Positions 14,812-50,338 of a stretch of 64,000 nt of DNA are shown piece by piece. A program made the position numbers and the translations under genes. Each line of letters begins with the position of its first letter. The first letter of the stretch is position 1. The DNA lies in assembly GCA_963717685.1 (NCBI GenBank), contig OY970346.1, forward strand, positions 1,183,695-1,247,694, read 5' to 3'. The notes below the pieces were generated by a model. It was not told the DNA's origin. It was given only the letters and a program-made list of their open reading frames with translations, and did no database searches. This DNA comes from an uncultured Bacteroidales bacterium. GTDB lineage: Bacteria > Bacteroidota > Bacteroidia > Bacteroidales > VadinHA17.

Positions 14812-15351
14812 TTATTTAGATGAACATTCCCAGATATAGGTATATTGGCCAACCGTGACAGGAGGGGTGGCCTCGATTACAACAAGATCGGCTCCACAGT
14901 ATTCCGCTGCATCAGACATATTATGATCATACACGCCATTGATATAAACTACCTCTTGGCAACACTTACAATAATTTAGAGTTGTGAATGAAAGTGCCAT
15001 TCCATATCCTGTTCCAGCACTATTTGTGGCATAAGCCCTGACATAATAGGTCGAATCAGAATCCAAGCCTGATATATGACTTATAAAAGTACCAGCACCA
15101 GCGCCATCATTAGTTTTACTGTCAGCCAAGGTTGGAGTGGCTTTAAGACTCCAACAAACGCCTCGAGCTATTATATTGCCTAAACCTTCATCGATTATGG
15201 TCCCTCCACATGTCGCGCTGTTTCCCGTGATATTAGTAATGGCTGCTGTTGTCAAAGTCGGAACATTTTCCTTCTTACAACTATTTATAAGAAATAAAAC
15301 AAATCCAATCGCTATTATTGGAGAAAGCCAGATTCCATTTTTAGTTTTCAT
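14812..15351 (-). CDS. Lipoprotein, identical copy 2 of 13837-14376
   Basis: The 179-aa translation is identical, offset by exactly 975 nt. Confidence 0.7.
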   Translation of the reverse strand: MKTKNGIWLSPIIAIGFVLFLINSCKKENVPTLTTAAITNITGNSATCGGTIIDEGLGNIIARGVCWSLKATPTLADSKTNDGAGAGTFISHISGLDSDSTYYVRAYATNSAGTGYGMALSFTTLNYCKCCQEVVYINGVYDHNMSDAAEYCGADLVVIEATPPVTVGQYTYIWECSSK

Positions 15352-20544: not shown

Positions 20545-20605
20545 TAGAAAAATAAGGAAGGATTTATAATTGAGGGATGAAAAACAGATAGGGGTATACA
20601 AGAAT
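20545..20605 (+). repeat. Repeat D, 3' fragment D3 (precedes C2)
   Basis: GGAAGGATTTATAATTGAGGGATGAAAAACAGATAGGGGTATACAAGAATGG versus 768-819. Confidence 0.55.
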
Positions 20606-20861
20606 GGTGGTAATTACCACCGACCTTTTCGTTTAAATTTAAACGAATTGTCATAAAATCCGTCAAAAACCTAGCAAGAACCTAGCAAGATGAAAAAACC
20701 AATTATACGAGTTGTCAAGTAATTGATATAACATAATACCACTAGATTTCACCAGGTTGATTCTGGTTGCTTCTGGGACAGTTTCTAAGGATGGCAAGAG
20801 GTGATGCTTGGCAAAAAATGATCTGTCACCAGGAACCTTAAAACATAGTAAAAATGGATAA
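20606..20861 (+). repeat. Repeat C, copy C2 (abuts M11)
   Basis: Same head and body as C1. Confidence 0.7.
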
Positions 20862-20999
20862 TGTAAAATCCAACCTTCTTTGACCACACCAAAATTCGGT
20901 CTGCTTTCACCGAACATACAATACAAAACAACAAGGATTTAACTCCCATATGAAGAGCGGTCAATTTATTACGGACAACTGGGGACAGTGGCTTTTCCA
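20862..20999 (+). mobile_element. IS21-like MITE, full (M11)
   Basis: TGTAAAATCCAACCTTCTTTGACCACACC .. GCGGTCAATTTATTACGG .. GTGGCTTTTCCA. Confidence 0.75.
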
Positions 21000-23362: not shown

Positions 23363-23506
23363 TAGGAAAACCATTGCCCCATACCCTATCTGGCCAGCAT
23401 AAATTGACCACCCAATAAAGGGTAGTTAAAAACTTGTTGTTTTGTATTGTATGTTCGGTGAAAGCAGACCGAATTTTGGTGTGGTCAAAGAAGGACGGGT
23501 TTTGTA
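23363..23506 (-). mobile_element. IS21-like MITE, full (M13)
   Basis: The reverse complement contains all blocks, and the plus strand ends ..GGTGTGGTCAAAGAAGGACGGGTTTTGTA. Confidence 0.7.
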
Positions 23507-23650
23507 TTATTCATTATTTCTACTATGTTTAAGGTTCCTGGTGACAGATCATCTTATGCCAACATTCTCCCCTTCCCATCCTTAGAAACTACTCCAGAAG
23601 CAACCAGAAGCAACCTGGTGACATCTGGTGGTATAATGTCATAATAATTA
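23507..23650 (-). repeat. Repeat C, partial copy C3 (abuts M13; the palindrome head is missing)
   Basis: Reverse complement of the C body. Confidence 0.55.
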
Positions 23651-23740
23651 CATGATAACCCATCAAAAAAATCACCAGCTTTGCAGACAGGTGGTCTTTT
23701 TGCTCGCCCTAATTTCACGAAAACAGGAATATAAAAAGTT

Positions 23741-24585: not shown

Positions 24586-24726
24586 TGGAAACGCCAGTAT
24601 CCTTGCCCATAGTTGTCCGTAATAGATTGACCACCCTTTAAAGTGGAGTTAAATAATTGTTGTTTTGTTTTGTATGTTAATGGTAATATGACCCACCAAA
24701 TGTGGTCAAGACCTCCAGCTTTTGCA
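24586..24726 (-). mobile_element. IS21-like MITE, full (M14)
   Basis: TGGAAACGCCAGT .. ATTGACCACCCTTTAAAG .. CCAAATGTGGTCAAGACCTCCAGCTTTTGCA. Confidence 0.75.
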
Positions 24727-27635: not shown

Positions 27636-27740
27636 CACCACAATCACCCCAACCCGGAGTTATGGAGTTATTGTTTTGTTTTGTATGTTCGTTATTATGT
27701 GACCGGTTTTTGAGATGGTCAAAGAAGGACGGATTTTACA
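27636..27740 (-). mobile_element. MITE, partial (M15)
   Basis: .. TGACCGGTTTTTGAGATGGTCAAAGAAGGACGGATTTTACA. The other arm is degraded. Confidence 0.6.
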
Positions 27741-27990
27741 TTATTCATTATTTTTACGATGTTTTAAGGTTCCTGGTGTCAGATTATCTTTTGCCAACTT
27801 TCTCCCCTTCCCATCACCAGAAATAGTAACAGAAGCAACCAGAATCAATCTGGTGACATCTGGTGAATTAGGTCATATTAATTACATGATAAAACATCCA
27901 AGCGGTTTTGGCTTGTTGCTTGGTTTTTGATGGATTTTATTACAATTCGTTTAAATTTAAACGAAAAGGTCGATGGTTTTAACACCACAG
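27741..27990 (-). repeat. Repeat C, copy C4 (abuts M15)
   Basis: Full body plus ATTCGTTTAAATTTAAACGAAAAGGTCG. Confidence 0.7.
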
Positions 27991-29825: not shown

Positions 29826-29967
29826 TGGAATAGCTAATGTCCTTAACCACTTTTGGCCTGAATAAAATGACCTCCCAAAACCCGGAGTTAAATCCTTGTT
29901 GTTTTGAATTGTCTGTTCGGTGAAGTCAAACCGGATTTTGAGGTGGCCAATGAGCTAGGCTTTTGCA
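29826..29967 (-). mobile_element. IS21-like MITE, full (M16)
   Basis: TGGAATAGCTAATGTCCTTAACCACTTTTGGCCTGAATAAAATGACCTCCC .. GAGGTGGCCAATGAGCTAGGCTTTTGCA. Confidence 0.75.
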
Positions 29968-31346: not shown

Positions 31347-31438
31347 AAAACCCAGCTGTTGAAGAATTGTTGTTTTTTTTTGGATGTTCGGGGAAATCTG
31401 ACCGGATTTTGAGGTGGTCAAAAAAGAACGGATTTTAA
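31347..31438 (-). mobile_element. MITE, partial (M17)
   Basis: .. CTGACCGGATTTTGAGGTGGTCAAAAAAGAACGGATTTTA. Confidence 0.6.
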
Positions 31439-32699: not shown

Positions 32700-33455
32700 T
32701 TAGTTTGTTCCTCCAAGTGATATGATTGTTTTCTTAATCTGTTTTCTCATGGATTCACCAGAGAGTTCAATACGGTGTGCCTGGTGTACGATGCGATCCA
32801 GTATAGCATCTGCAATGGTATTTTCTCCGATAATCTCATACCATTGTAAGACCGGGAGTTGTGAGGTGATGATCGTTGACCGTTTACCATGACGGTCTTC
32901 GATAATCTCCATGAGTGAAGAACGACTTTGATTATCAAAGGGCTGTATCCCAAAGTCATCAAGTATTAACAAGTCCTGCTTTTCAATGCGTGCTATTTCT
33001 TTGATATAGGACCCATCAGCTTTCGACATTTTTAGTTTGGCAAAAAGCTTTGTGGTATTGGCATATAAAACTTTATATCCCAGAGTACATGCCTGATTTC
33101 CGATAGCTGAAGCCACAAAGCTTTTCCCGATGCCAGTACTTCCAGTGATAATAATTGTTTCTGACTTATCAATAAAACTACAATCGGCAAAGCGCATGAT
33201 CTGGTTTTTATCAAGGTTCCGGTCGGTTTCAAAGTCGAGGTGCTCAATATCTGCCTTGTAACGAAAACGGGCTTGATTTATGTGCCGTTCAATACGGAGG
33301 TTGTTACGATGGTCCCATTCCGATTCAACCATGAAAGCTACCATCTCATCTGCTGTCATGCTGGCCATGCGACCGTCTTCAAGTGTGGTTTTAAAGGCCG
33401 TAGCCATTCCCTGGAACTTCATTTGTTTAAGTCGCTGTAATGTTTGCTCATTCAT
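32700..33455 (-). CDS. istB: IS21-family helper ATPase IstB
   Basis: Walker A GSTGIGKS and Walker B LLILDDFG, with the typical IstB length. Confidence 0.95.
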   Translation of the reverse strand: MNEQTLQRLKQMKFQGMATAFKTTLEDGRMASMTADEMVAFMVESEWDHRNNLRIERHINQARFRYKADIEHLDFETDRNLDKNQIMRFADCSFIDKSETIIITGSTGIGKSFVASAIGNQACTLGYKVLYANTTKLFAKLKMSKADGSYIKEIARIEKQDLLILDDFGIQPFDNQSRSSLMEIIEDRHGKRSTIITSQLPVLQWYEIIGENTIADAILDRIVHQAHRIELSGESMRKQIKKTIISLGGTN

Positions 33456-33532
33456 AGATTTTTATTTTTAAAAGTTAATAATAGTGTTAATCCAGCCACG
33501 ATCTTCCCGTGACTGGATAACTGATAAATTGA

Positions 33533-35086
33533 CTATTTGTAATATCCTCCCCCACGAACATTGCGATGCCCGGGCATTTTCTTATTGTCATCTTCTGAGT
33601 CGAAAGGTTCCTGGTCAAGTCGTTTTTCTATGATGGTACGGATAGCATTATAACTGAAGTCGCCATAATATAATGCCCTCCGACAGGCTCTATTCAAACG
33701 ATCACTACCAACATGTATAACAAAACTGAGGATTCCCTGGCATGTTTTATAGGCTTGCTCGGGATGTTGCCTTATCTCAAGAATATGGACAATATAATCC
33801 CTGGTATCATCACCAATAAAGGTTGCCCGCTGAATAAACTTCTCCGCGGTCCAGTCGCTTTTAAACTGGTGGTGGGATGCCAGATGATCTTCGTTGGTGG
33901 TGTATCCGTAGAGTTTAAAATTGCGAGTATATGTTGCTATAAGATCATATCGGTAATATATCTCCACCAGGTCAGAAGTGTAAAGTATGGTAACCTTCTT
34001 TCCAATATACCGGTAAGGGACGCTGTAATAATGTTTGTCTTCAGCCAGACATACATGATTGTTTTTCATTACTGTAACTACTTTCTTCCTTTTAGCCTGG
34101 TACCTGTATTGTGGCAGCGGCTGCAGATCCGATTTCTCTATTTCTTCGAACAATTGCCTTCTGCTATAGGGACGGCCGGATAAGAGTTTGTTGTTGTGAT
34201 CCTCAAGTGCTTCCCTGATAGCAGTATTTAAGTCTGTTAAAGAAAAGAAAGTGCGTTGCTTAATCGTGTAAAAAATAGTCCGGTATATTATTTTAACTGC
34301 TCCCTCAACCAGAGCTTTGTGTTTAGGTTTATAGGGACCGGCCGGAAGCGCTGTCATATGATAATGCTCTACAAAATCACGGAACATCTCGTTAAGCGTT
34401 GGTTCGTACCTGTCACTTTTGATTACTGCCGATTTTAAGTTGTCTGTTACTATGGCCAGTGGCATACCACCATAATAATGAAGAGCATTCTCGCAGGAAC
34501 ATATAAAGTCTTCTTTCCTTTGGGTCATAGATGCCTCAACATAGGTAAGCTGGCTGGACCCCAGGATCGCAACAAAGATTTCTACCGGAACCACTTCCCC
34601 TGTTGCCTGATCAACAAAGGACAGCTTATCGCCTGTATAATCTACATACATCTTGTCACCGCTCTTATGCTCCATGTGCATCGAAGAGTTGACCTTCTTG
34701 CTCCATAGATTATAATGTTCATTAAACTGTGTTTTACGATAGCCATCAGGATGTTTTAAAAAATATTGCTCCCACTGTTTTTCCCGTGTCTCCCCTTTGC
34801 GTTTAAGGGCTTTCTCCATACCAGGAAAGAAGGCTATCAGATCTGCTTTGCGCTGATCTGTCGGTACCTCCTGACGGGGCATTGAAAACAAGGCCTCCAT
34901 CTGAGTATCACTGAGTTTATCAATTTCTTCCAGTGTCTTACCCATGGCAGTAAATTGCCGGATATACTTCTTAACCGTGTTTCGTGTAGCTCCTGTGCGG
35001 ATGCTGATCGATTGCTTACTTACACCCTCGGTGTACATCTTTAAAATACTTCTTGCTTTACTCATAATAATTAAATTGTTAGACAT
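33533..35086 (-). CDS. istA: IS21-family transposase IstA
   Basis: N-terminal HTH (RNTVKKYIRQF) and a DDE/rve-like core. 517 aa, located upstream of istB. Confidence 0.95.
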   Translation of the reverse strand: MSNNLIIMSKARSILKMYTEGVSKQSISIRTGATRNTVKKYIRQFTAMGKTLEEIDKLSDTQMEALFSMPRQEVPTDQRKADLIAFFPGMEKALKRKGETREKQWEQYFLKHPDGYRKTQFNEHYNLWSKKVNSSMHMEHKSGDKMYVDYTGDKLSFVDQATGEVVPVEIFVAILGSSQLTYVEASMTQRKEDFICSCENALHYYGGMPLAIVTDNLKSAVIKSDRYEPTLNEMFRDFVEHYHMTALPAGPYKPKHKALVEGAVKIIYRTIFYTIKQRTFFSLTDLNTAIREALEDHNNKLLSGRPYSRRQLFEEIEKSDLQPLPQYRYQAKRKKVVTVMKNNHVCLAEDKHYYSVPYRYIGKKVTILYTSDLVEIYYRYDLIATYTRNFKLYGYTTNEDHLASHHQFKSDWTAEKFIQRATFIGDDTRDYIVHILEIRQHPEQAYKTCQGILSFVIHVGSDRLNRACRRALYYGDFSYNAIRTIIEKRLDQEPFDSEDDNKKMPGHRNVRGGGYYK

Positions 35087-36284: not shown

Positions 36285-36648
36285 CTCAAACATCTGATTC
36301 AAAAAATGTTGATTTGGATGTATTAACTCAAGAATGGAGACAAGCAAGTGATAGGATTAAAGAAATTGGAGTATAAGAAGCTGAACAACCCAAAGGTGAG
36401 CTCGAAATTAAGAAAATAAGGATGCTTGATGATGGATCGCTGAGTGAAGAAATGGGCCCAGGATTTTTCTATGAAGAATACAGCTTGGCATTGGATATTG
36501 TAAACATCAGGAGAAGTCAGAAGAACTGATCACATCTGTCCGGAGGTAAGCATACAACTCTATATAACTTAAATTGCTATTTTAACATATTCTGGTAATA
36601 TTTTGATTTACCTTTACATTGACTTTTAAACTTAAATTAAATAGAGCT

Positions 36649-37131
36649 ATGGGTAAAATATTACGTTGGACAGGTTATGTATCAACACTTATTGGTGCAA
36701 TATTTATTATTATGTCTATTATTGGTGGTTTTAGATACCATCATCATTACATTCAAGCGCATGCGCAGACTTGCTGTAATATGCAACATCCTGGTGGCAA
36801 CATGGCTGTTGTTATAAGTGATTCTGTAAGGTGCAAACAACATTCAGTTACTGTTACAGGAACCAGGGGAAAACAAGATTCTGTTAAATATTCAATTACT
36901 GTTACAGGGACTATGGGGAAACAAGATTCTGTAAAATGTTGTAAAAAACAACCAGTGTATTTAACGACTGCTCCTATGATTTGCCATGGTTGCCAAATGT
37001 ATCATCACCGTATTGGATTTCATATGGGATTGGCAATATGTTTTCTATTGTTAGCGATTTCTTTATTTATGATAAGTAATAGTTGCTGTTGTAAAAAAAA
37101 TAGCGAAAACAACGAAGAAAAGAAGGAATAA
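36649..37131 (+). CDS. Cys/His-rich small membrane protein with an internal 16-aa tandem repeat
   Basis: Preferred ATG at 36649. It has N- and C-terminal TM segments and the motifs HHHYIQAHAQTCCNMQHPGG, CHGCQMYHHR and SNSCCCKK. The repeat is VTVTGTRGKQDSVKYS / ITVTGTMGKQDSVKCC. Confidence 0.55.
   Translation: MGKILRWTGYVSTLIGAIFIIMSIIGGFRYHHHYIQAHAQTCCNMQHPGGNMAVVISDSVRCKQHSVTVTGTRGKQDSVKYSITVTGTMGKQDSVKCCKKQPVYLTTAPMICHGCQMYHHRIGFHMGLAICFLLLAISLFMISNSCCCKKNSENNEEKKE
36844..36939 (+). repeat. In-frame 48-bp x2 tandem repeat inside the Cys/His-rich CDS
   Basis: tcagttactgttacaggaaccaggggaaaacaagattctgttaaatat versus tcaattactgttacagggactatggggaaacaagattctgtaaaatgt. Confidence 0.8.
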
Positions 37132-38235: not shown

Positions 38236-38304
38236 GCTAGGGGAGAACTTGGCAAAAGATGATCTGTCACCAGGAACCTTTAAAATAGTAGAAATAATGA
38301 ATAA
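38236..38304 (+). repeat. Repeat C, 3' fragment C5 (abuts M20; cut off by the right inverted repeat)
   Basis: GGGGAGAACTTGGCAAAAGATGATCTGTCACCAGGAACC... Confidence 0.55.
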
Positions 38305-38446
38305 TGTAAAATCCGTCCATCTTTGACCACCTCAAAATCCGGTCATCCTTCACCGAACATTCAAAACAAAACAACAATTCTTTAACTCCCCTTTAAAGGG
38401 TGGTCAATTAATTCCTTCCAATTAGGGTCAGATTGTCTGGTTTTTG
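38305..38446 (+). mobile_element. IS21-like MITE (M20)
   Basis: TGTAAAATCCGTCCATCTTTGACCACCTCAAAATCCGGTCA .. GGGTGGTCAATTAATTCC .. GGGTCAGATTGTCTGG. Confidence 0.7.
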
Positions 38447-38454
38447 TAAATTTG
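38447..38454 (+). promoter_or_regulatory. Candidate Bacteroidetes -7 promoter element (TAnnTTTG)
   Basis: TAAATTTG lies about 55 nt upstream of the S8 peptidase ATG. This is a motif match only. Confidence 0.25.
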
Positions 38455-38507
38455 TATAGACTTGGACCTCAATCGATAATATCATAGTTTCCAAATTCAT
38501 TATTCAA

Positions 38508-41500
38508 ATGAAAAATAAAATAGCCCTAATTACCCTGGTAGTCTTTGTTTTTGGATTAGGAATTCTGAACGCACAGGAAGCCAGTTCTTTTACGAAAGCA
38601 AATGGGAATACCAGCCATAGGCTGGATACGACTGATTTTGTAACTAATGAGATACTTGTCAAATTCAAAGACGAAGTGGAAGTTACTCCTGATAAGCTTA
38701 TGAATTACTCTTTAGCATCAAAAGGGGTAAACAGCATCCTTGAGGAGAATAATATTAAAACTGCTGAAAAGCTCTTCCCGGGGGCACAGATGCATAAGGG
38801 CGTGAAAACTGTGAAGACTCCTCTTGGCAAAGATATGGTTATACCCAATCTTCATAATATCTATAGGATTGTTCTTGGCGGAAACAAATCCTCAGGGTTA
38901 AATCCATTTGAATTAAAAGCGCTTATAAATCAGTTGAAAACGCTTCCAGAGGTTGAATATGCTGAACCGAACTATTATTATTCGATAGGCGATTTCAAAC
39001 CCGTTTCACCGGTGATGAACCAGATGGAAGCTATGAAGTGGGCTGACAGTCATCAATCAAAAGGTGGCTCCGGGCTTGTCCCGAATGACCCTCTTTACAG
39101 CCAGCAATGGGGCATTCCCGCCATTCATGCCGATCAGGTTTGGAATACTTTTACAGGTGATACAAGTGTCATAATTGCTATCCTTGATACGGGTGTAGAC
39201 TGGCACCATCCTGATCTGGCAGAGAACATCTGGATCAATCCCGGTGAAATCCCAGGTAACGGCAGGGATGATGACGGGAATGGATTTATTGATGATGTGA
39301 GAGGATGGGATTTTATTAATAATGATAATGATCCGATGGATGATAATTCGCACGGTACGCACTGTGCAGGAATTGCAGCAGCCGCAGGTAATAATGGAAT
39401 AGGGATTGCAGGTGTCAACTGGAAAGCAAAAATAATGCCGATAAAAGTATTCCAATCCGACGGATGGGGAGATGCAGCAACTATCTCCAAGGGTATAAAT
39501 TATGCCGCCCAGAATGGAGCGAAGGTCATTTCAATGAGCTTCGGAGGATACGGAGAATCTCAGACCATGAGAATTGCTCTTGCGAATGCATATGCAACGG
39601 CAGTTCTCGTTGCAGCTGCAGGGAATGACGGACTTTGTATCGGTCCAGGTAAGTGCCCCGATGATAAAATAGGCCAACCATTATTCCCAGGAGCTTATTC
39701 ATTTGTTTTAGGAGTTCAGGCTCCGCCATTACCAGCAGATGGAGGTTTTACAAATTATGACCAGGATGGCCCAGTCTTTTCAAATTACCCTGACCAATAT
39801 AATTATGAGCTTTCAGCCCCTGGCACTGGCATAATTTCTTGTGTCCCAGGAGGGAATTACAGGATAGCCTCAGGCACATCAATGGCAACTCCTTTTGTTG
39901 CGGGTGCAGTTTCTCTTTATAGAGAATTGAAACCAAAGGACGGTCAGGAAATTATGTGGGGAAACCTCATTAACAGTTCATCTGAATATATTGATATCAA
40001 TGGTGCACTCAATATTGTTTCTATACCAGTCATAAATATTACCAATTTTGTTATGTCAGATACAATGCCGGGTGATGACAGGGATGGTAAAGCAGACGCA
40101 GGGGAGACGATACAGCTTGAGGTTTTTGTACATAACACCTGGGGACCGGCAGATTCTGTTTATGTGGGCATTCAATTTGCAGAATTTGAGGATACCACGA
40201 CAGCAACCATTCTACAGAAGCAGGCATTTGTAGGCTCAATAGGAGCCTATGGAACCCTTTCAAATCATCTTAATTTATTAGAGATAAAAATCAGTCCAAA
40301 CATAGCAAACGGCCGTGATATAAGATTTGTTCTTAAAACCTGGCAAGGTAAGAATCATCTTTATCAGACATCTGTTCCAGCCATTATCAATGTCACGCAT
40401 GGAACAGAGCTTAAAGGTATTCTTGACGACACGCTCCGGCTCACTTCTGATAAATTCTGGTTGGTTGACAATAGCTTTAAAATTGGTCCCAACGGGGTAT
40501 TAATAATTGAACCTGGAACTACCTTAGAAATAGAAAAACAGATAACTAATCTTGGGGAGATTTTCGCATTTGGGAAGGCCGATTCAATAGTGACAATAAT
40601 TGGTCCCTACGGTATTACTGGAGGGTTTATTTCATGTCAATATACTCATTTTGAATCATTTTATTGTGCTCCATTTTTCACAAGTTCAACTGCAAATTTT
40701 GAATATTGTAGATTCGAGAATGCTCAAAATATTATATGTTTTCAGGCAACTGATGCAAATTTTTTGCATTGTGAATTACTTAATCTTACAAGCAATTATT
40801 GGGGAACTTTCTATGGTGGTAATCTTACTTTTAAATACATTAATTTTTATAATAATAATACAGGTCCATTTATAGCGTCGAGTAGTTGGGAATTTACATA
40901 TTGTAACTTTGCAAATTCTCCTGGAACATCTCTTTATGAGAGCGGTAATTGTAATATATCTTATTGTAATTATTTAAGCATTTGTAAAAACTTTTACTAT
41001 ACAGCTACAGGCTTATATTCATTTTTGCCAAATATATACTGGGGAACTTTAGACACTTTAAAGATTGAAGATAAGATTTATGATTTTTGGGATGATGCCA
41101 GCTATTCAATCCTTAATTATAAACCATTACTGGAAAAGCCAACCTCACTTGCTCATGGTTGTGTCTGGAAAGTCGTAGTAAATGGTTTTGATGCACAGGA
41201 TCAGTTTAATCAACTAGATGCATTAGGTGTAGGCAAGCATAAATTTGAAGTCTACTTTAACAGGCCAATGGATATTAAGTATACACCTGCAATTACAATG
41301 GGTGTCAGGTATCCCTATAACCAGGTTCCTATTAATGAAAATGGTTCATGGAGCTCCGACTCTGTAATATATACTGTTTATAAAACACTAGGACTTTCAC
41401 AGTCGGACGGCCTTAACAGGCTGCAAGTCGTGGGAGGGAAAGATCCTGAAGGATTTGACCTTGTTCCTGAAAATGAGAGGTTTAATGTCAATATACAGTC

Positions 41501-42632
41501 CCAGGGTTCTCTTTCAGTTGGCTTTTTAGCGACACCGGGGATGGGTAAAGTTGCACTTCAGTGGAACTCTCCCTCCGGAACTGTGCCGGATCTCTTTGGC
41601 TATAATATGTACCGTTACACCTATATAAATGACTCGACGACAACAGATACACTTCTTATCAATAAATCTCTGATAACCGATACGGTTTATACTGATTATA
41701 ATGTTGTCCCGGGGACGAAGTATTTTTACACATATAAGACTGTCCGCACTGACCTTTCTCAAAGCTCCTTCTCAAAAATAGTAGCCGCTACGCCATATAC
41801 GGCCGCAAAAGGCGATGCCAATGGTGACCTGACAGTTAATGTAGCAGATATTATATGTGTTGTAGCATATATTCTTATGGAGAATCCGCAGCCTTTCATT
41901 TTCGATGCTGCCGACTATAACTCGGATGGTGTGGTGAATGTGCTTGACATAACGGGGATAGTGCATAAGATTCTATATCCGGGCAAGGGGGACATTACTA
42001 AAGGAACACCAGAATCTGCAACACTTTTCCTCAGAGGAGATACGCTGTTTGTAGATACACCAGTAGCACTTGGTGGTATCCAATTTACCATTAGGAATAC
42101 AAAAACTACAGATTATACGGTCCTTAGTGCCCTAGAATCATTTGAGAGAGCTACAATATCAAATGCCGACTCGCTGTTCTTTCTTGCTTACAGTATGACT
42201 GGTAAGACATTTGGACCGGGGATTGTTCCATTACTGAAATTCAATAACGGGATTCTGGATATTGACGGCATAGTGCTTTCAACAGCAACCGGTAATAGCG
42301 TCAGTCCCGTATATAAGGGTAGCAATGGAACCACTTCCGTAAACGAAATAAGGGATGTCATAACTAATAGTCTGAAGGCCACACCTAATCCGTTTTCCAA
42401 TGAGACAATTTTATTATTCAAACTTCCGGTCAAAGTTGATTTGGTGATATTCTCTGTATTTAACATATCAGGCATAAAGGTTGATGAGATAATCCTGAAA
42501 AACTTAATTGTAGGAGAAAATCAATATACATATAGACCAAATCTCAGGCAAGGCTTCTACATATTAAAGATGTCAGGGATCGTGAATGGTAAGACCAGTG
42601 TGGAGAGCAATCTTAAAGTCCTTGTGGAATAA
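38508..42632 (+). CDS. S8 subtilisin-family serine peptidase with a dockerin-like module and a T9SS C-terminal sorting domain
   Basis: Catalytic triad DTGVDWHHPDL / HGTHCAGIAAA / SGTSMATPFVAGA. Duplicated Ca-loop motifs GDANGDLTVNVADI and DYNSDGVVNVLDI lie at about nt 41811-41975. The C-terminal ~85 aa (TPNPFSNETILLFKLP..) look like a T9SS CTD. Confidence 0.9.
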   Translation: MKNKIALITLVVFVFGLGILNAQEASSFTKANGNTSHRLDTTDFVTNEILVKFKDEVEVTPDKLMNYSLASKGVNSILEENNIKTAEKLFPGAQMHKGVKTVKTPLGKDMVIPNLHNIYRIVLGGNKSSGLNPFELKALINQLKTLPEVEYAEPNYYYSIGDFKPVSPVMNQMEAMKWADSHQSKGGSGLVPNDPLYSQQWGIPAIHADQVWNTFTGDTSVIIAILDTGVDWHHPDLAENIWINPGEIPGNGRDDDGNGFIDDVRGWDFINNDNDPMDDNSHGTHCAGIAAAAGNNGIGIAGVNWKAKIMPIKVFQSDGWGDAATISKGINYAAQNGAKVISMSFGGYGESQTMRIALANAYATAVLVAAAGNDGLCIGPGKCPDDKIGQPLFPGAYSFVLGVQAPPLPADGGFTNYDQDGPVFSNYPDQYNYELSAPGTGIISCVPGGNYRIASGTSMATPFVAGAVSLYRELKPKDGQEIMWGNLINSSSEYIDINGALNIVSIPVINITNFVMSDTMPGDDRDGKADAGETIQLEVFVHNTWGPADSVYVGIQFAEFEDTTTATILQKQAFVGSIGAYGTLSNHLNLLEIKISPNIANGRDIRFVLKTWQGKNHLYQTSVPAIINVTHGTELKGILDDTLRLTSDKFWLVDNSFKIGPNGVLIIEPGTTLEIEKQITNLGEIFAFGKADSIVTIIGPYGITGGFISCQYTHFESFYCAPFFTSSTANFEYCRFENAQNIICFQATDANFLHCELLNLTSNYWGTFYGGNLTFKYINFYNNNTGPFIASSSWEFTYCNFANSPGTSLYESGNCNISYCNYLSICKNFYYTATGLYSFLPNIYWGTLDTLKIEDKIYDFWDDASYSILNYKPLLEKPTSLAHGCVWKVVVNGFDAQDQFNQLDALGVGKHKFEVYFNRPMDIKYTPAITMGVRYPYNQVPINENGSWSSDSVIYTVYKTLGLSQSDGLNRLQVVGGKDPEGFDLVPENERFNVNIQSQGSLSVGFLATPGMGKVALQWNSPSGTVPDLFGYNMYRYTYINDSTTTDTLLINKSLITDTVYTDYNVVPGTKYFYTYKTVRTDLSQSSFSKIVAATPYTAAKGDANGDLTVNVADIICVVAYILMENPQPFIFDAADYNSDGVVNVLDITGIVHKILYPGKGDITKGTPESATLFLRGDTLFVDTPVALGGIQFTIRNTKTTDYTVLSALESFERATISNADSLFFLAYSMTGKTFGPGIVPLLKFNNGILDIDGIVLSTATGNSVSPVYKGSNGTTSVNEIRDVITNSLKATPNPFSNETILLFKLPVKVDLVIFSVFNISGIKVDEIILKNLIVGENQYTYRPNLRQGFYILKMSGIVNGKTSVESNLKVLVE

Positions 42633-42675
42633 TGGACGAATCATATTTGATGCACCTTAACATTAATTAAAAACA

Positions 42676-44817
42676 TTGAAACCACTTTATAGAATAATTA
42701 CGACCGTTCTGCCAGTCCTGTTGCTCAATCAGCTGTGCATTGGTACAAATGTCATTTACGTGCAAAACGCTGTAAGTCCACCTAACAGTTCTGTAATCAT
42801 TCATGTTGGAGTAAACAATGATTCTTTATTCAATGCAGTGCAGTTTGACCTTCTGTTCCCTTCAGAATTAACATGGATCAATGATAGTGTAAGTCTTACA
42901 GTCCGGGCCGATGGTCATTCTGTTTCATCTGCATTAATTGAGCCCGGACGGTTAAGGGTTGTTGCCTGGTCATCTGTGAATGCGGACTTCACAGGTACAT
43001 CAGGAGATATTGTGGAGATCGGTTTCATTTCAGGAATGGACCCGGGAACATATCCTGTCACAATTGAGAATGCAACTCTCAGCGGCACAAACAGCAATAT
43101 ACTGACAGGAGTAACAGACGGAACCTTTACTCTTACAGCTCCAAAGGCGAAACTCTCTGTGGGATCTATTGACTGGGGGCGGATTCCACTGTTACAGGAG
43201 GCATATCGGACATTGGCAATTACCAACAGTGGAAATTTACCGTTGACTATAACTGCCCTTGATTTTGCAGATAATCGTTTTTCGAGCTCGCTGACATTAC
43301 CATTTACCCTGGCAGCAAACAATTCAGTAAATATTGATATCAGGTTTTATTCCACGATTAAAGGCACAATAACCAGCAATCTCACTGTCTATTCAAATGA
43401 TCCGGACGGCCAGCAGCTATGTGATCTGTCAGTTATTGCTTTTGCTGTCAATGAGATCCATATAGGAAATGCAACAGGGCGTTCAGGTTATGAAATGGTA
43501 ATTCCAATATCAATAAATAACATGGAGCCATTTAATGCATTCCAGGTAAAAATAAAGCTTCCTGCAGTTGCTAAATTCATCAAAGGTTCTGACGTACTAA
43601 GCACAACAAGAAAGGTTGACCATGTAGTGGCCGCAGATACCTTAAAAGATACGCTTACCATAGTTGCCTATTCTCCTTCAAATAAGCCATTCCTGTCAAA
43701 TGATGGTGTTGTCATGAACTTTACCCTTTTTGTCCAGGGACAAGGTGGAAGTTATCCCTTATCCCAATCCGGGTCAATAATTTCAGATTCAACCGGGGCG
43801 AATTCATTATCAGCAAGCTATGACGGATGGATAGATATTACAGCTCCTATTCTTGCCGTCAGTTCCAGCGAAATAGATTTCGGAAATGTTTCAACTCTTG
43901 ACAGTGCTACAACTGAACTTGTACTATTCAATAATGGCAATGATGATTTGATAATAAACCAGATCGATATTGCAGATACTGCATTTGCTTATTATGAGAC
44001 ACTGCCTTTTACGATACCTCCGGGTAAAAATAAAGTCGTGACATTAAGTTTTCGAGCTGTCGATGGGCTGGAACACAAGACTGTTTTAAGAATCCAAAGC
44101 AACGATCTTCCAAGGGATCCGACGGATGTAATATTAACAGCCAAATCCTTTTTCCCAAATGAATTAAGGGTGACTGATCTGATAGTTAAAGCCGGCACTT
44201 CTGATACTCTGTTTATAAACTTATTCAACCAATCGCTGGTCTCCGGATTCCAGTTTGATATTGGACTTCCTGTTGGAATTAATCCTTCCGCAATTGGTGT
44301 TTTCCTCACAGGACGAAAGGCCGATCATGTCGTAATGGCATCAGAAATAGATTCGGGTAAACTAAGGGTTTTATCTTATTCGGGCAGCCTGAAATCATTT
44401 TCCGGAAATTCCGGGAATATAATAGGTATTCCTATCCAGGTATCCGCAGCCTTATTGGGAACTTACCCAGTTGATATTTCTGGTGTCGTAATAAGTGATA
44501 GTATCGGGAAATCGATTGGAACAGGCTATAAATCAGGTAATATTACAATTAATGCAGCAAACGGGATTAAAAGTATAATTCTATTATCAGAAATAAATGT
44601 TTACCCAAATCCAATCACTGATGAGCTTAACATCAATTTTGGTGACGAAACAATAACAAGGATTAGTCTATGTCAACTTAATGGGTTGATAGTTTGGACG
44701 GAAGAAAAAGTAAGTAGTCATATTTTAGTCAATACGGAAATGCTTAAACCGGCAATGTACCTGCTTATTGTTGAGAGTAATAAAGGTATAGAGGTCATAA
44801 AAATTATAAAGAAATAA
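42676..44817 (+). CDS. Tri-cohesin-like surface protein with a T9SS C-terminal sorting domain
   Basis: TTG start. Three ~130-aa cohesin-like modules sit at about nt 42745-43140, 43450-43850 and 44160-44570 (FNAVQFDLLFPSEL, FNAFQVKIKLPAV, VSGFQFDIGLPVG). They are separated by Ig-like modules, and the protein ends with INVYPNPITDELNINF. Confidence 0.7.
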   Translation: MKPLYRIITTVLPVLLLNQLCIGTNVIYVQNAVSPPNSSVIIHVGVNNDSLFNAVQFDLLFPSELTWINDSVSLTVRADGHSVSSALIEPGRLRVVAWSSVNADFTGTSGDIVEIGFISGMDPGTYPVTIENATLSGTNSNILTGVTDGTFTLTAPKAKLSVGSIDWGRIPLLQEAYRTLAITNSGNLPLTITALDFADNRFSSSLTLPFTLAANNSVNIDIRFYSTIKGTITSNLTVYSNDPDGQQLCDLSVIAFAVNEIHIGNATGRSGYEMVIPISINNMEPFNAFQVKIKLPAVAKFIKGSDVLSTTRKVDHVVAADTLKDTLTIVAYSPSNKPFLSNDGVVMNFTLFVQGQGGSYPLSQSGSIISDSTGANSLSASYDGWIDITAPILAVSSSEIDFGNVSTLDSATTELVLFNNGNDDLIINQIDIADTAFAYYETLPFTIPPGKNKVVTLSFRAVDGLEHKTVLRIQSNDLPRDPTDVILTAKSFFPNELRVTDLIVKAGTSDTLFINLFNQSLVSGFQFDIGLPVGINPSAIGVFLTGRKADHVVMASEIDSGKLRVLSYSGSLKSFSGNSGNIIGIPIQVSAALLGTYPVDISGVVISDSIGKSIGTGYKSGNITINAANGIKSIILLSEINVYPNPITDELNINFGDETITRISLCQLNGLIVWTEEKVSSHILVNTEMLKPAMYLLIVESNKGIEVIKIIKK

Positions 44818-44865
44818 CTTCAAACTCTGAATAGTAGAAACGACACTTATTTTGTTTATAATATT

Positions 44866-45040
44866 GAAAGAAAGGTTGGTGTTAATTACCACCAACCTTT
44901 GTTTAAATTTAAACGGATTGTCATAGAATCTTCAAAAACCTAGCGACAAGCCAAAACCACTTGAACAGGTTGTAATGTAATTATTATGACACGATACCAC
45001 CAGATGTCACCAGATTGAATCTGGTTGCTTCTGGGACTAT
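44866..45040 (+). repeat. Repeat C, copy C6, 5' part (interrupted by IS256)
   Basis: Head hairpin and palindrome, ending ..GGTTGCTTCTGGGACTAT at the IS256 junction. Confidence 0.75.
44871..44905 (+). terminator. Hairpin plus T-rich tail 3' of the S8/cohesin gene pair (this is the head of a repeat-C copy)
   Basis: aaaggttggtg-ttaatta-ccaccaaccttt followed by gttta. Confidence 0.5.
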
Positions 45041-46410
45041 AGTAGTGTTCCCTTTTGTGTGTCTGGGTAGGTTCGGTACCCTGTAAGAATTTTGCATATC
45101 TAAAATACATTTTATTTATTTAACAGATCAAGAAATGAATCTTTTTCATCCGGGAAGAGATCCTTATCGACATCCACTGCCGGCAGAGCACGGTAATAAG
45201 CCGTTTTGTCCATCGCCGTTTTCGACATTAAAACGATGACTGACTCTTCACTGGGCATTGCTCCCCGCATCCTTAAAACCCTTCTGAAATCCCTCTGCAG
45301 GCGTTCTATCCAATTGGTTGTGTATATCATCGACTGGATCCGGTAATGATATTTAAGGTATGTAAAATAATACCTGTAAAAGGGATCTTCCCCCATCTTC
45401 TTAATGCTCCTGTAATCATTACCCCATTTTCTGCAAAGTTCCTGCCATGCAATCCATCCTTTCTCCGAAGTATAGGTTCTGTCTCCCGTCCTGAATACAT
45501 CTCTAAGATCATTGGCCAGTTCACCTTTGTCTCCATGTCTTACCCGGTTAAACATATTACGCTTGAGATGGGTGACGCACTTTTGCAGATCGCTGCCGGG
45601 ATATATCTCGGCTAATGCGTCCTCAAGATATTTTATGCCATCAGCAACTGTTAATCCTATTCTTTCAACTCCACGCTCCTGCAGAGACATAAACATCTCT
45701 TTCCAGCCTTCAGCGCTCTCTGAAGGACGATTAAAGATACCAAGCACATCTCTGGTTTTGTCTTCCTTCACGGCCATTACAACATAAAATGCTTCATTTT
45801 CCACGCTTCGCTTGCGATGGACCTTGATATGAATGGCATCTACAAAAACTATCGGGTAATAGTTCTCAAGCGACCTGGTAAGCCACTGTTCCACATCAGC
45901 TCTCAGATACTCGATCATACGGCTAATGCTGGCTTTACTCTATTGCTTACCGTATACCTCACCAAATACCTCACCTACCTGTGACTGGGTCAAGCCCTTA
46001 CAGTATAAACTGCTGGCCAGCTGCTCACATTCTACTTCCTGGTCTTTTAAAAGTGCCAGAATAGTAGGATGAAAATTACCGTATCTGTCTCTTGGTATCC
46101 TGAACTCAAGTATCCTGCCCTGTCCGTAACTCTTACCCTGACGAAAACCGTTGCCTTTGTTCCCCCGGCTCCCGTCAAGAAAATCCCGGCGCTCGGCCTT
46201 CATCATGCTTTCAATCATCAGTTCCATTAAGTCTTGCAACCCTCTTTCACGGTTTAAATGGTTGACAAATACATCCGAAAGTTGTTCCTTTGTGAAATCC
46301 ATTGGTCTTCCTGGTTTTTAGTTTTACATTTTTTGTTTGCCTTTGCAAAACTAATCCAGGGAGACCTTTTTTAAAATACCTATGTGAGACACACTTTTTT
46401 GAACACTATC
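45041..46410 (-). mobile_element. IS256-family insertion sequence (1370 bp) inserted into a repeat-C copy
   Basis: Imperfect IRs AGTAGTGTTCCCTTTTGTGTGTCT and GATAGTGTTCAAAAAAGTGTGTCT (rc). An 8-bp direct duplication GGGACTAT lies at 45033-45040 and 46411-46418. Repeat-C sequence resumes on both sides. Confidence 0.85.
45112..46302 (-). pseudogene. IS256-family (Mutator-type) transposase with an in-frame TAG
   Basis: ORFs 45940-46302 and 45112-45918 share a frame, with TAG at 45940-45942 (..EVYGKQ*SKASISRMIEYLR..). Motifs are YPIVFVDAIHIKV, VADGIKYLEDA and TTNWIERLQ. Confidence 0.85.
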
Positions 46411-46510
46411 GGGACTATTTCTTGTGATGGGAAGGGGAGAAGCTTGGCAAAGGATGATCTTTCACCAGGAACCTTAAAACATAGTAGAAATAATGAATAA
46501 TGTAAAATCC
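46411..46510 (+). repeat. Repeat C, copy C6, 3' part (after IS256; abuts M21)
   Basis: Resumes GGGACTATTTCTTGTGATGGGAAGGGGAGAAGCTTGGCAAAGG... Confidence 0.75.
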
Positions 46511-46621
46511 GTCCTTTTGTGACCACTTCAAAAGACGATCAGATTCCACATAACATACACTATAAAACAACAAGGATTTAACTCCCCTGTAATGGGTGGT
46601 TTGCAAAAACCGTGACAAGCC
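46511..46621 (+). mobile_element. MITE, right arm degraded (M21)
   Basis: TGTAAAATCCGTCCTTTTGTGACCACTTCAAAAG .. ATGGGTGGTTTGC. Confidence 0.6.
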
Positions 46622-49965: not shown

Positions 49966-50222
49966 AGTGTCAATTACCACCAACCTTTGTTTAAATTTAA
50001 ACGAATTGAAATAAAATCCATCCAACATCCGTCAAAAACCTGGCAACAAGTCAAAACCACTTATAAGGGTTGTCATTTAATTTTTAAGATATAATATCAC
50101 CAGATGTCACCAGGTTGATTCTGGTTGCTTCTGGGGTAGTTTCTAAGGATGGGAAGGGGAGATGCTTGGCAAAAGATAATCTGTCACAAGAACTCTTAAA
50201 ACATAGTAGAAATAATGAATAA
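49966..50222 (+). repeat. Repeat C, copy C7 (abuts M22)
   Basis: Full head and body. Confidence 0.7.
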
Positions 50223-50338
50223 TGTAAAATCCGTCCTTCCTTGACCACCTGAGAATCCGGTCATCCTTCACAGAACATACATCATAAACAACAATTTTTT
50301 AACTCCGGATTTGGGTGGTCAATTTGTCCGTTTTTCCA
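50223..50338 (+). mobile_element. MITE, short right arm (M22)
   Basis: TGTAAAATCCGTCCTTCCTTGACCACCTGAGAATCCGGTCA .. TGGGTGGTCAATTTGTCCGTTTTTCCA. Confidence 0.7.

What the first reader, a model, noticed from the sequence alone, without database searches (positions are those of the whole stretch)
38508..44817. Adjacent dockerin-bearing S8 protease and tri-cohesin-like protein, both with T9SS sorting domains
The 1374-aa subtilase carries a canonical duplicated dockerin Ca-loop pair (GDANGDLTVNVADI ... DYNSDGVVNVLDI) upstream of its T9SS CTD. The gene 43 nt downstream encodes three cohesin-like modules separated by Ig-like spacers, and also ends in a T9SS CTD. A cognate-looking cohesin/dockerin pair encoded side by side suggests a cell-surface scaffold that displays up to three copies of a protease, or other dockerin proteins. 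That would be a cellulosome-style assembly repurposed for proteolysis in a T9SS organism. Cohesin and dockerin modules outside cellulosomes are known from surveys. Functional non-cellulolytic complexes exported by T9SS are poorly characterised.
Basis: partly seen in the sequence, partly recalled or inferred. Interest (0 to 1): 0.55.

Follow-up and report, generated by a model that had tools for sequence, protein, structure and literature searches.

The report
Conserved protease–cohesin/dockerin surface cassette
A large secreted subtilisin-type protease carrying a calcium-binding "plug" (dockerin) sits next to a surface protein carrying three matching "sockets" (cohesins); the pair recurs in many Bacteroidota-related bacteria, so it is probably an uncharacterised cellulosome-like docking system built around a protease.

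Summary
ORF 38508-42632 (1374 aa) is an S8 subtilase with an intact catalytic triad, a canonical two-loop dockerin and a T9SS type A sorting domain. ORF 42676-44817 (713 aa), 43 nt downstream, has three mutually homologous modules, two Ig-like spacers and a T9SS sorting domain. Sequence profiles place all three modules in the cohesin family.

- The pair is a strongly conserved cassette. 47 of 53 related genome loci with upstream DNA have the protease family directly upstream, and 4 of 4 look-ups that started from protease homologs found the cohesin protein adjacent. It occurs in Bacteroidota, Ignavibacteriota, Calditrichota, Kryptoniota and Cloacimonadota.
- The three cohesins are ancient, position-specific classes (A, B, C), not interchangeable repeats.
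- The protease carries its own short cohesin-like domain between the dockerin and the sorting domain.

The dockerin is the best conserved non-catalytic part of the protease, and cohesin B is the best conserved part of the partner.

Dockerin-cohesin binding could not be tested. It is the most likely mechanism (about 0.5). The "three copies of one protease" picture is doubtful. I rate this a new variant of a known kind, of moderate to high interest.

The parts
38508..38573 (+). P1 signal peptide (residues 1-22, ...ILNA|QE)
   Evidence: Read directly from the translation: charged N-terminus, hydrophobic core, A-Q junction. Inference; no predictor was run.
39165..39956 (+). P1 subtilase (Peptidase_S8) catalytic domain, residues 220-483. 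Triad D227 (DTGVD), H282 (HGTHCAG), S458 (GTSMATP).
   Evidence: Pfam PF00082 at 162.8 bits. Motif positions. The triad columns are nearly invariant in 107 family members. A Fervidolysin_NPro-like prodomain hit lies upstream.
39957..41792 (+). P1 middle region (residues 484-1095). It is unassigned here; some homologs show a weak Beta_helix_4 hit. It ends in an FN3-like segment (about 991-1095).
   Evidence: No Pfam hit for residues 501-1100. Homologs carry PF28492. Conservation is 29-57% by sub-region. The FN3 label is my reading of the sequence and was not tested.
41808..41972 (+). P1 dockerin, residues 1101-1155. Two Ca-binding loops: DANGDLTVNVAD and DYNSDGVVNVLD.
   Evidence: Pfam PF00404 at 29.2/31.1 bits against a cutoff of 22.9. 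A family profile hits solved dockerins first: 2y3n_B at 2.5e-5, then 6kg9, 4fl4, 5nrk and CelS 2mte/1daq. The Ca ligands are invariant in 107 sequences. AF2 gives three helices with pLDDT above 90.
42015..42323 (+). P1 short cohesin-like beta-sandwich, about residues 1170-1272
   Evidence: hhalign against P2 modules A/B/C gives probability 96-97%, E 2e-9 to 1e-11. AF2 gives 9 strands with pLDDT about 90-96. The Foldseek top hit is 2w1n, the cohesin+FN3 construct of C. perfringens GH84C (1.9e-8); the A. fulgidus cohesin 2xdh is also listed. The P2 cohesin HMM detects the domain directly in 22 of 119 homologs. A direct profile search against PDB sequences found nothing.
42375..42632 (+). P1 T9SS type A C-terminal sorting domain (residues about 1290-1374, plus the stop codon)
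   Evidence: TIGR04183 at 26.2 bits, cutoff 23, on the last 95 aa. AF2 gives a 7-strand sandwich. The PNPF motif is present and the family consensus is YPNPF. About 45 of the 120 best homologs carry a precomputed PF18962 hit.
42633..42675 (+). 43-nt spacer between P1 and P2 with no terminator-like hairpin
   Evidence: Co-transcription is inferred, not shown.
42745..43155 (+). P2 cohesin module A, residues about 24-160
   Evidence: Homologous to modules B and C. Profile A1 hits solved cohesins: 5n5p at 2.3e-5, and 6kg8 over its full length. 13 of 26 orthologs match Pfam Cohesin. AF2 pLDDT is about 95, with roughly 9-11 strands. The window copy alone gives no Pfam hit.
43156..43425 (+). P2 Ig-like spacer 1 (HYDIN/ASH, 'choice-of-anchor D')
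   Evidence: NF012200 at 65.3 bits, residues 146-244. Pfam PF22544 and PF15780.
43435..43851 (+). P2 cohesin module B, residues about 254-392. It is the best conserved module.
   Evidence: Pfam Cohesin at 25.5 bits, cutoff 24.1, covering profile positions 3-135 of 139 when scanned alone. Profile A2 hits solved cohesins 3l8q and 5n5p. Mean identity to homologs is 43%, against 32% for A and 29% for C.
43861..44133 (+). P2 Ig-like spacer 2 (HYDIN/ASH)
   Evidence: Pfam PF22544 at 68.4 bits; best stretch is residues 391-481.
44143..44565 (+). P2 cohesin module C, residues about 490-630
   Evidence: Profile A3 hits solved cohesins: 5n5p at 1.8e-6, 6kg8 at 9.7e-5. 12 of 24 orthologs match Pfam Cohesin. 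The window copy alone gives no Pfam hit.
44599..44817 (+). P2 T9SS type A sorting domain (residues 642-713, plus the stop codon)
   Evidence: PF18962 at 33.5 bits and TIGR04183 at 30.9 bits. Matches the C-terminus of solved structure 5jvk.
44871..44900 (+). Terminator-like hairpin (11-bp stem plus a T-rich tail), 54 nt after the P2 stop
   Evidence: It is also part of a dispersed repeat.

Best explanation
P1 and P2 form a conserved two-gene cassette, probably one operon, whose products are exported by the type IX secretion system.

Proposed mechanism:
- P2 is the surface-attached receptor. Its core is CohA-Ig-CohB-Ig-CohC, and its sorting domain is exchanged for a surface anchor.
- P1 is a large active subtilase. 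Once folded with calcium outside the cell, its dockerin plugs into at least one P2 cohesin. Module B is the best candidate.
- This holds or organises the protease at the cell surface.
- P1's own cohesin-like domain and the other two P2 cohesins offer further docking sites, so higher-order assemblies are possible.

Shown here: the domain identities, the intact catalytic and calcium-binding residues, the conservation pattern and the synteny.
Inferred: co-transcription, surface anchoring, and any dockerin-cohesin contact, including which module binds.
For: - Domain identities.
- Models: AF2 models are confident (P2 pLDDT 93; P1 C-terminal region pLDDT 85).
- Synteny from the P2 side: at 63%, 35%, 32% and 29% P2 identity, the upstream gene is always an S8+dockerin protein of about 1330-1375 aa. 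In 61 genome loci found with a module-B pattern, 47 of 53 with upstream DNA have a P1-family ORF upstream on the same strand. Thirty are directly adjacent and 17 sit behind one small gene. Of the other six, four show a C-terminal P1-family fragment at the contig edge and all have under 2.8 kb of upstream DNA.
- Synteny from the P1 side: 4 of 4 look-ups that started from P1 homologs find the A-B-C cohesin protein next door, in either gene order.
- Conservation: the dockerin is 62% conserved, second only to the catalytic domain (68%). The adjacent cohesin-like domain is 32% and the sorting domain 26%. CohB is the most conserved part of P2. The dockerin's Ca ligands and the PF..AAD linker are invariant in 107 sequences.
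- Modular variation as in cellulosomes: many loci hold a small CohA+sorting-domain gene. In L074 the P2 homolog ends in a second, canonical dockerin instead of a sorting domain and is followed by two ~405-aa proteins that each carry a cohesin module.
- Operon structure: no terminator in the 43-nt spacer and a strong hairpin after P2.
Against: - No binding test of any kind was possible. The structure tool returns no contacts, and both jobs were single chains.
- P1 has its own T9SS sorting domain, so it does not need P2 to reach or stay on the surface.
- P1 carries a cohesin-like domain right after its dockerin in all 119 homologs that include the C-terminal region. The dockerin's partner could therefore be internal.
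- The Cohesin assignment of window modules A and C is indirect. The whole-protein Pfam scan lists no Cohesin, and Foldseek on the full P2 model was swamped by multi-Ig proteins.
- Three differentiated cohesins but only one dockerin type in the cassette leaves the stoichiometry unexplained.
Confidence: 0.5

Rival explanations
1. Self-contained protease. The P1 dockerin binds P1's own neighbouring cohesin-like domain. This could be within one molecule (a stabilising clasp) or between molecules (head-to-tail chains). P2 is linked to the protease for another reason, such as substrate capture or adhesion, and its cohesins bind something else.
For: - The order dockerin, cohesin-like domain, sorting domain is invariant in all 119 homologs that include the C-terminal region.
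- The cohesin-like domain is homologous to the P2 cohesins.
- The Foldseek top hit is an enzyme-borne cohesin, 2w1n.
- pTM of 0.64 for the three-domain fragment is compatible with some fixed domain packing.
Against: - The cohesin-like domain is poorly conserved (32%) while the dockerin is highly conserved (62%). A co-evolving internal pair would be expected to drift together, whereas a highly conserved dockerin argues for a conserved partner, and CohB fits that better.
- This reading does not explain the near-obligate synteny with a three-cohesin protein.
Confidence: 0.2
2. No cohesin-dockerin docking at all. The dockerin-like segment is only a calcium-binding stabiliser and the cohesin-like modules are beta-sandwich spacers. 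P2 is an adhesin, a substrate-binding protein or a maturation/inhibitor partner, co-expressed with the protease.
For: - Non-cellulosomal dockerin and cohesin modules are common, and most have no demonstrated partner (background knowledge; the survey of Peer et al. 2009 could not be read).
- Both proteins have independent sorting domains.
- The Cohesin scores of the window modules are marginal.
Against: - Finding the only dockerin and the only cohesins of a 64-kb window in adjacent genes, and the same pairing conserved across at least five phyla, is hard to explain without an interaction.
- The two-fold symmetric NVLDI helices and the invariant inter-helix linker look like a constrained binding surface rather than just a Ca site.
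- The L074 variant swaps a sorting domain for a second dockerin and adds extra cohesin genes.
Confidence: 0.2
3. General scaffold. P2 is a cellulosome-like scaffoldin that recruits many different dockerin-bearing enzymes encoded elsewhere in the genome, and the protease is only one client.
For: - Three differentiated cohesins could have three specificities.
- A multi-enzyme reading was proposed for Cloacimonadota MAGs (PMC8542988).
Against: - Across all inspected loci the only enzyme consistently linked to P2 is the P1-family subtilase, sometimes in 2-3 tandem copies.
- P2 has no carbohydrate-binding module.
- There are no other dockerins in the window.
- A genome-wide census could not be done.
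Confidence: 0.1

Closest known systems
Clostridial cellulosome (scaffoldin cohesins plus type I dockerin enzymes, e.g. C. thermocellum CipA/CelS, C. acetobutylicum CipA)
   Same: The same two module families. The P2 module profiles hit 6kg8/6kgc, 3l8q and 5n5p, and the P1 dockerin profile hits 2y3n_B, 6kg9 and CelS 2mte/1daq. Other shared features are a duplicated, symmetric Ca-loop dockerin and several cohesins on a surface-targeted non-catalytic protein.
   Different: - The host is a Gram-negative relative of Bacteroidota with T9SS sorting domains, not a Firmicute with SLH or sortase anchoring.
- The client is a subtilase, not a glycoside hydrolase.
- There is no CBM.
- The cohesins are three fixed, differentiated classes separated by ASH/Ig domains, not variable near-identical repeats.
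- The enzyme has its own anchor signal and its own cohesin-like domain.
Clostridium perfringens non-cellulosomal cohesin-dockerin enzyme complexes (GH84C NagJ cohesin; structures 2w1n, 2jh2, 2ozn)
   Same: An enzyme that itself carries a cohesin next to an FN3/Ig domain. 2w1n is the top Foldseek hit for the P1 C-terminal region, and NagJ cohesins appear in the profile hits. The complex is non-cellulolytic.
   Different: Those are Firmicute toxin/glycosidase complexes. They have no protease, no T9SS and no separate three-cohesin partner.
Predicted cellulosome-like complex of 'Ca. Stygibacter' (Cloacimonadota), Williams et al. 2021, PMC8542988
   Same: A bioinformatic inference of dockerin-bearing enzymes, including an S8/S53 peptidase, docking to a cohesin scaffoldin that ends in a T9SS-type C-terminal domain. 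Cloacimonadota loci also appear in my synteny set (L028, L029).
   Different: That scaffoldin is a 3755-aa protein with tandem cohesins and CBM2/CBM3, interpreted as a multi-enzyme polysaccharide/peptide degrader. The compact, conserved protease + CohA-Ig-CohB-Ig-CohC cassette and the protease-borne cohesin-like domain are not described there.
Archaeoglobus fulgidus non-cellulosomal cohesin (2xdh)
   Same: A stand-alone cohesin outside any cellulosome. It is hit by the module profiles and by Foldseek for the P1 cohesin-like domain.
   Different: Archaeal, with a different context and no T9SS.
Porphyromonas gingivalis gingipain-adhesin surface complexes (T9SS cargo)
   Same: Works alike in outline: T9SS-exported proteases held on the cell surface in non-covalent complexes with adhesin domains (background knowledge, not tested here).
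   Different: Different protease class (C25) and different assembly domains (cleaved-adhesin/HagA). No cohesin or dockerin.

Membership tests
Peptidase S8 (subtilase) | Match to the family profile above the curated cutoff | tested here: met
   PF00082 at 162.8 bits against a cutoff of 21.8, residues 220-483.
Peptidase S8 (subtilase) | Asp-His-Ser catalytic triad in the DTG / HGTH / GTSMA motifs | tested here: met
   D227, H282 and S458 are present. The columns are nearly invariant in 107 homologs.
Dockerin (PF00404, type I-like) | Profile match above the cutoff covering both repeats | tested here: met
   29.2/31.1 bits against 22.9, covering profile positions 1-56 of 57. A family profile hits solved dockerins first.
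Dockerin (PF00404, type I-like) | Two 12-residue Ca-binding loops (D1, N3, D5, N/D9, D12), each followed by a helix | tested here: met
   DANGDLTVNVAD and DYNSDGVVNVLD. The ligand columns are invariant. AF2 gives helices at construct residues 23-33, 43-46 and 56-67 with pLDDT above 90.
Dockerin (PF00404, type I-like) | Ca-dependent binding to a cognate cohesin | not testable with these tools
Cohesin (PF00963) | Profile match above the curated cutoff | tested here: inconclusive
   Module B alone scores 25.5 bits against 24.1 over the full profile length. Modules A and C alone, and the whole protein, give no hit. Orthologs match in 13 of 26 (A) and 12 of 24 (C).
Cohesin (PF00963) | Homology to solved cohesins | tested here: met
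   Profiles of A, B and C hit almost only cohesins in the PDB, with best E-values of 2.3e-5, 3.7e-4 and 1.8e-6. A and C align to 6kg8 over their full length.
Cohesin (PF00963) | Nine-stranded beta-sandwich (jelly-roll) fold | tested here: inconclusive
   The AF2 model is all-beta with roughly 9-11 strands per module and pLDDT about 95. Foldseek on the six-domain model returned multi-Ig proteins only, and no single-module model could be made.
Cohesin (PF00963): P1 post-dockerin domain | Homology to cohesins | tested here: inconclusive
   hhalign to the P2 modules gives probability 96-97%. The Foldseek top hit is 2w1n (cohesin+FN3), and 2xdh is listed. A direct profile search against PDB sequences found nothing, and there is no Pfam hit.
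T9SS type A C-terminal sorting domain (TIGR04183 / PF18962) | Profile match above the cutoff at the extreme C-terminus | tested here: met
   P2: 33.5 bits (Pfam) and 30.9 bits (TIGR04183). P1: TIGR04183 at 26.2 bits against 23 on the last 95 aa, but no hit in whole-protein scans.
T9SS type A C-terminal sorting domain (TIGR04183 / PF18962) | The host encodes the T9SS machinery (PorK/L/M/N, Sov/SprA, PorU/V) | not tested
   None was seen among the 10 neighbouring ORFs scanned. The rest of the genome is not available.
Cellulosome | Scaffoldin with a carbohydrate-binding module, and dockerin-bearing glycoside hydrolases | tested here: not met
   P2 has no CBM. The only dockerin protein in the cassette and in the window is a protease. 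It works like a cellulosome but is not one.

The most novel reading that the evidence does not exclude
The cassette builds a self-extending proteolytic surface lattice. Each protease brings one symmetric dockerin and one cohesin-like socket, and P2 brings three non-equivalent sockets. Proteases could then dock both to P2 and to each other, giving a branched, calcium-dependent 'proteolysome' coat. This would be conserved across the FCB superphylum and exported by the T9SS, an assembly principle not described for any protease.
Probability: 0.15. Interest if true: 0.8.

Novelty: new variant of a known kind. Interest (0 to 1): 0.6.

Why it matters
Cohesin-dockerin docking has mostly been characterised experimentally in Gram-positive cellulosomes. 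A compact, widely conserved cohesin-dockerin cassette dedicated to a subtilase and exported by the type IX system would extend that assembly principle to protein degradation in Bacteroidota-related phyla. More than 2000 protease homologs were found, and full-length partner proteins fill the whole list of the 150 best 50%-identity representatives.

It would give a defined function to two very common but uninformatively annotated protein families: 'S8 family serine peptidase' and 'choice-of-anchor D domain-containing protein'.

It would also supply new orthogonal cohesin-dockerin pairs for surface display. The three differentiated cohesins and the enzyme-borne cohesin-like domain make a directly testable question: who binds whom.

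Tried and rejected
- Foldseek of the full P2 model against the PDB was dominated by multi-Ig ciliary, titin and macroglobulin chains. It says nothing about cohesin.
A linked cohesin-dockerin chimera was considered but dropped.
A 10-sequence alignment worked.
- A direct HMM of P2 cohesins against P1 gave only 2.8 bits. Profile-profile comparison was needed.
- A profile of the P1 cohesin-like domain found nothing in PDB sequences.
- BLASTP of the P1 sorting domain against the P2 sorting domain found no similarity.
- The Peer et al. 2009 survey is not held in the library. Four literature searches found no description of this cassette.
- Rfam found nothing in the window.
- The source organism could not be named.
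- I rejected the idea that the split P1 ORF in assembly L001 means a pseudogene. It differs from the window by a single 1-nt indel, and the window ORF is intact.

Full report
**Observation**

The window holds two same-strand ORFs exactly as described. P1 is 38508-42632 (1374 aa, ATG start). P2 is 42676-44817 (713 aa, TTG start). They are separated by 43 nt.

P1 features:
- Pfam finds Peptidase_S8 at residues 220-483 (162.8 bits), a Fervidolysin-type N-terminal prodomain signal, and Dockerin_1 at residues 1101-1155. The dockerin scores 29.2 bits, or 31.1 bits on the C-terminal fragment, against a cutoff of 22.9.
- The catalytic motifs DTGVD (D227), HGTHCAG (H282) and GTSMATP (S458) are present. 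They are nearly invariant in the family.
They have the canonical D1-N3-D5-N9-D12 pattern.
- The T9SS sorting domain escaped every whole-protein scan. The last 95 residues scanned alone reach TIGR04183 at 26.2 bits, above the cutoff of 23. The AF2 model shows a seven-strand sandwich there.

P2 features:
- It ends in a clear type A sorting domain (PF18962 33.5 bits, TIGR04183 30.9 bits).
- It contains two HYDIN/ASH 'choice-of-anchor D' Ig domains.

**Are the three P2 modules cohesins?**

- Modules at about 24-160, 254-392 and 490-630 are 27-32% identical to each other, with E 1e-12 to 1e-15.
- The whole-protein Pfam scan lists no Cohesin. Module B scanned alone reaches 25.5 bits, above the cutoff of 24.1, over almost the whole profile. 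Modules A and C alone give nothing.
- Profiles built from orthologs of each module hit almost only cohesin structures in the PDB: 5n5p, 6kg8/6kgc, 3l8q, 2xdh and the C. perfringens NagJ cohesin. The best E-values are 2.3e-5 (A), 3.7e-4 (B) and 1.8e-6 (C). Profiles A and C align to 6kg8 over their full length.
- Scanned individually, 13 of 26 module-A orthologs and 12 of 24 module-C orthologs match Pfam Cohesin. The best E-values are 6.5e-9 and 2.1e-10.
- The AF2 model of P2 is confident (pLDDT 93) and all-beta, with roughly 9-11 strands per module.
- Foldseek on this six-domain model returned only multi-Ig proteins and is uninformative.

I therefore accept cohesin homology on sequence evidence. 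The fold check remains formally open.

**The dockerin**

- A profile of the family's dockerin segment hits solved dockerins first: 2y3n_B at 2.5e-5, then 6kg9, 4fl4, 5nrk and CelS 2mte/1daq.
- Across 107 family members, the residues G13, D14, N16, G17, D25, F41, A45, D47, D51 and D58 of the fragment are invariant.
- The consensus is KGDANGDL.VNVLDI..IVAYLL..NPQPFIFEAADVN.D..INVLDI. Both halves carry the same (V/I)NVLDI helix start, which gives the internal two-fold symmetry typical of type I dockerins.
- The inter-helix linker is also conserved.
- By region, the dockerin is 62% identical to homologs on average. Only the catalytic domain is higher (68%). The domains that follow it are at 32% and 26%.

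- Between the dockerin and the sorting domain, P1 has a beta-sandwich of about 100 residues (about 1170-1272).
- A profile of this region aligns to P2 modules A, B and C with hhalign probability 96-97% (E 2e-9 to 1e-11), sharing the GGIQF / L..YS..GK motifs.
- AF2 gives nine strands at high confidence.
- The best Foldseek match of the P1 C-terminal model is 2w1n, the cohesin+FN3 construct of C. perfringens GH84C (1.9e-8). The A. fulgidus cohesin 2xdh is also listed.
- The P2-cohesin HMM detects this domain directly in 22 of 119 homologs. The order dockerin, cohesin-like domain, sorting domain is invariant in the family.
- A direct profile search of PDB sequences found nothing. I call it cohesin-like, not a proven cohesin.

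**Conservation of the pair**

- P2 homologs at 63%, 35%, 32% and 29% identity all lie just downstream of a dockerin-bearing S8 gene of about 1330-1375 aa, directly or (L005) behind one small gene, in otherwise unrelated neighbourhoods.
- A scan of one genome per species with a module-B pattern gave 61 loci. They come from Bacteroidota (Prolixibacteraceae, Draconibacterium, Lentimicrobiaceae, Paludibacter, Chitinophagaceae, Flavobacteriaceae), Ignavibacteriota, Kryptoniota, Calditrichota and Cloacimonadota.
- With local family HMMs, 47 of the 53 loci that have upstream DNA show a P1-family ORF upstream on the same strand. Thirty are directly adjacent and 17 sit behind one small gene.
- Of the other six loci, four show a C-terminal P1-family fragment at the contig edge. 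All six have less than 2.8 kb of upstream DNA.
- Ten loci have two proteases in tandem.
- Going the other way, 4 of 4 look-ups that started from P1 homologs found an adjacent protein with the same CohA-Ig-CohB-Ig-CohC core. In the two Ancylomarina genomes it lies upstream and is 1608 or 2277 aa long.
- The protease family is large: 2141 hits at E no greater than 1e-3 among the scored candidates. Full-length P2-type proteins make up many of the 150 best 50%-identity representatives, all of which score at least 747 bits; the rest are giant multi-repeat proteins.

**Architecture of P2**

- All 79 homologs that yielded three hits keep the three modules at the same positions, while the C-terminal extension varies.
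- HMMs trained on half of the sequences assign every held-out module to its own positional class. The result is 39 of 39 for A, B and C, with median margins of 40-68 bits.
- The three cohesins are therefore old, differentiated and non-interchangeable, unlike the near-identical repeats of many scaffoldins.
- CohB is the best conserved: 43%, against 32% for CohA and 29% for CohC.
- The small gene often found between protease and P2 encodes a CohA-type module plus a sorting domain.
- In a distant variant (L074) the protease keeps its dockerin and cohesin-like domain. The P2 homolog ends in a second, canonical dockerin instead of a sorting domain, and two genes of about 405 aa with N-terminal cohesin modules follow. 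This mix-and-match of cohesins, dockerins and anchors is what one sees in cellulosome gene clusters.

**Local context**

- There is no terminator-like hairpin in the 43-nt spacer. A strong one (11-bp stem plus T-rich tail) lies at 44871-44900, after P2. This is consistent with a two-gene operon, which I infer.
- No other dockerin or cohesin is encoded in the window.
- The neighbours are unrelated: an IS21 pair, NUDIX, glyoxalase, an IS256-family transposase, a hydrolase, an MFS transporter and a SpoIIE/TPR protein.

**Mechanism**

The best-supported reading is a T9SS-exported, calcium-dependent cohesin-dockerin assembly specialised for a subtilase. P2 is the surface receptor and the P1 dockerin binds at least one P2 cohesin. 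CohB is my candidate, on conservation grounds only.

No binding step is shown. I put the probability at about 0.5. The rivals are:
- The dockerin binds P1's own cohesin-like domain, within one molecule or head-to-tail between molecules (0.2).
- There is no docking at all, and the pairing reflects co-expression of a protease with an adhesin or chaperone (0.2).
- P2 is a general scaffold for many dockerin enzymes encoded elsewhere (0.1).

Also, P1 carries its own sorting signal, so docking is not needed for export.

**Comparison with known systems and novelty**

- The modules belong to the same families as cellulosomal cohesins and type I dockerins. The system is not a cellulosome: it has no CBM, the client is a protease, it is exported by the T9SS, and it has a fixed three-cohesin core with Ig spacers.
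- The nearest precedents are the non-cellulosomal cohesin-dockerin enzyme complexes of C. perfringens and a bioinformatic proposal for Cloacimonadota MAGs. That proposal has S8-dockerin and other dockerin enzymes docking to a large cohesin/CBM scaffoldin with a C-terminal sorting domain (PMC8542988).
- Four literature searches found no description of this compact cassette or of the protease-borne cohesin-like domain. The key 2009 survey could not be read.
- I rate it a new variant of a known kind, interest 0.6.

Noticed in passing
window 38239-38430 and 44877-45040; further copies at 819-1178, 3535-3659, 4877-4984, 6025-6078, 20605-20988, 23383-23660, 24626-24678, 27656-27987, 29860-29953, 31358-31437, 46433-46600, 49967-50324: A dispersed intergenic repeat of about 350 nt flanks the cassette. 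It has an 'R part', which includes the terminator-like hairpin after P2, usually followed directly by an 'L part', which includes a palindrome at 38376-38413 just upstream of P1. There are at least 5 full and several partial copies in 64 kb, at 75-94% identity, in both orientations. There is no Rfam match. It may be a MITE/REP-like element, or it may carry promoter and terminator signals.
   Followed up: partly
window 45112-46302 (- strand), with repeat parts at 44877-45040 and 46433-46600: An IS256/Mutator-family transposase is split into two ORFs (120 aa and 268 aa). It appears to have inserted between the R and L parts of one copy of the dispersed repeat, right after the cassette. An IS21 transposase/IstB pair lies at 32700-35086 on the other side.
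   Followed up: partly
L001 (Logan contig ERR11594402_5607561), equal to window 38380-44900: An independent assembly of the same sequence differs by a single 1-nt indel, which splits P1 into 847-aa and 454-aa ORFs. That contig ends exactly at the flanking repeats. The window and NCBI version are intact.
   Followed up: yes
L074 750-10369 (ENA ERZ27234819 k141_1243062): A variant cluster. It holds a protease with a dockerin and a cohesin-like domain, then a three-cohesin protein ending in a second, canonical dockerin instead of a T9SS domain, then two proteins of about 405 aa that each have an N-terminal cohesin module. This layout looks like a hierarchical scaffold with anchors.
   Followed up: partly
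L005 9185-9994, and similar small genes in L020, L030, L031, L033, L040, L046, L049, L054, L055, L057: Many related loci have an extra gene of about 260-350 aa between protease and P2. It encodes a single CohA-type module plus a T9SS sorting domain. The window lacks it.
   Followed up: partly
window 13837-14376 and 14812-15351 (- strand): Two ORFs encode identical 179-aa products (MKTKNGIWLSPIIAIGFVLFLINSCKK..., lipoprotein-like with a Cys-rich tail). This points to a recent tandem duplication.
   Followed up: no
window 36619-37131 (+ strand), repeat at 36839-36934: A small His/Cys-rich putative membrane ORF (170 aa, TTG start) contains a 48-nt tandem duplication at 85% identity.
   Followed up: no
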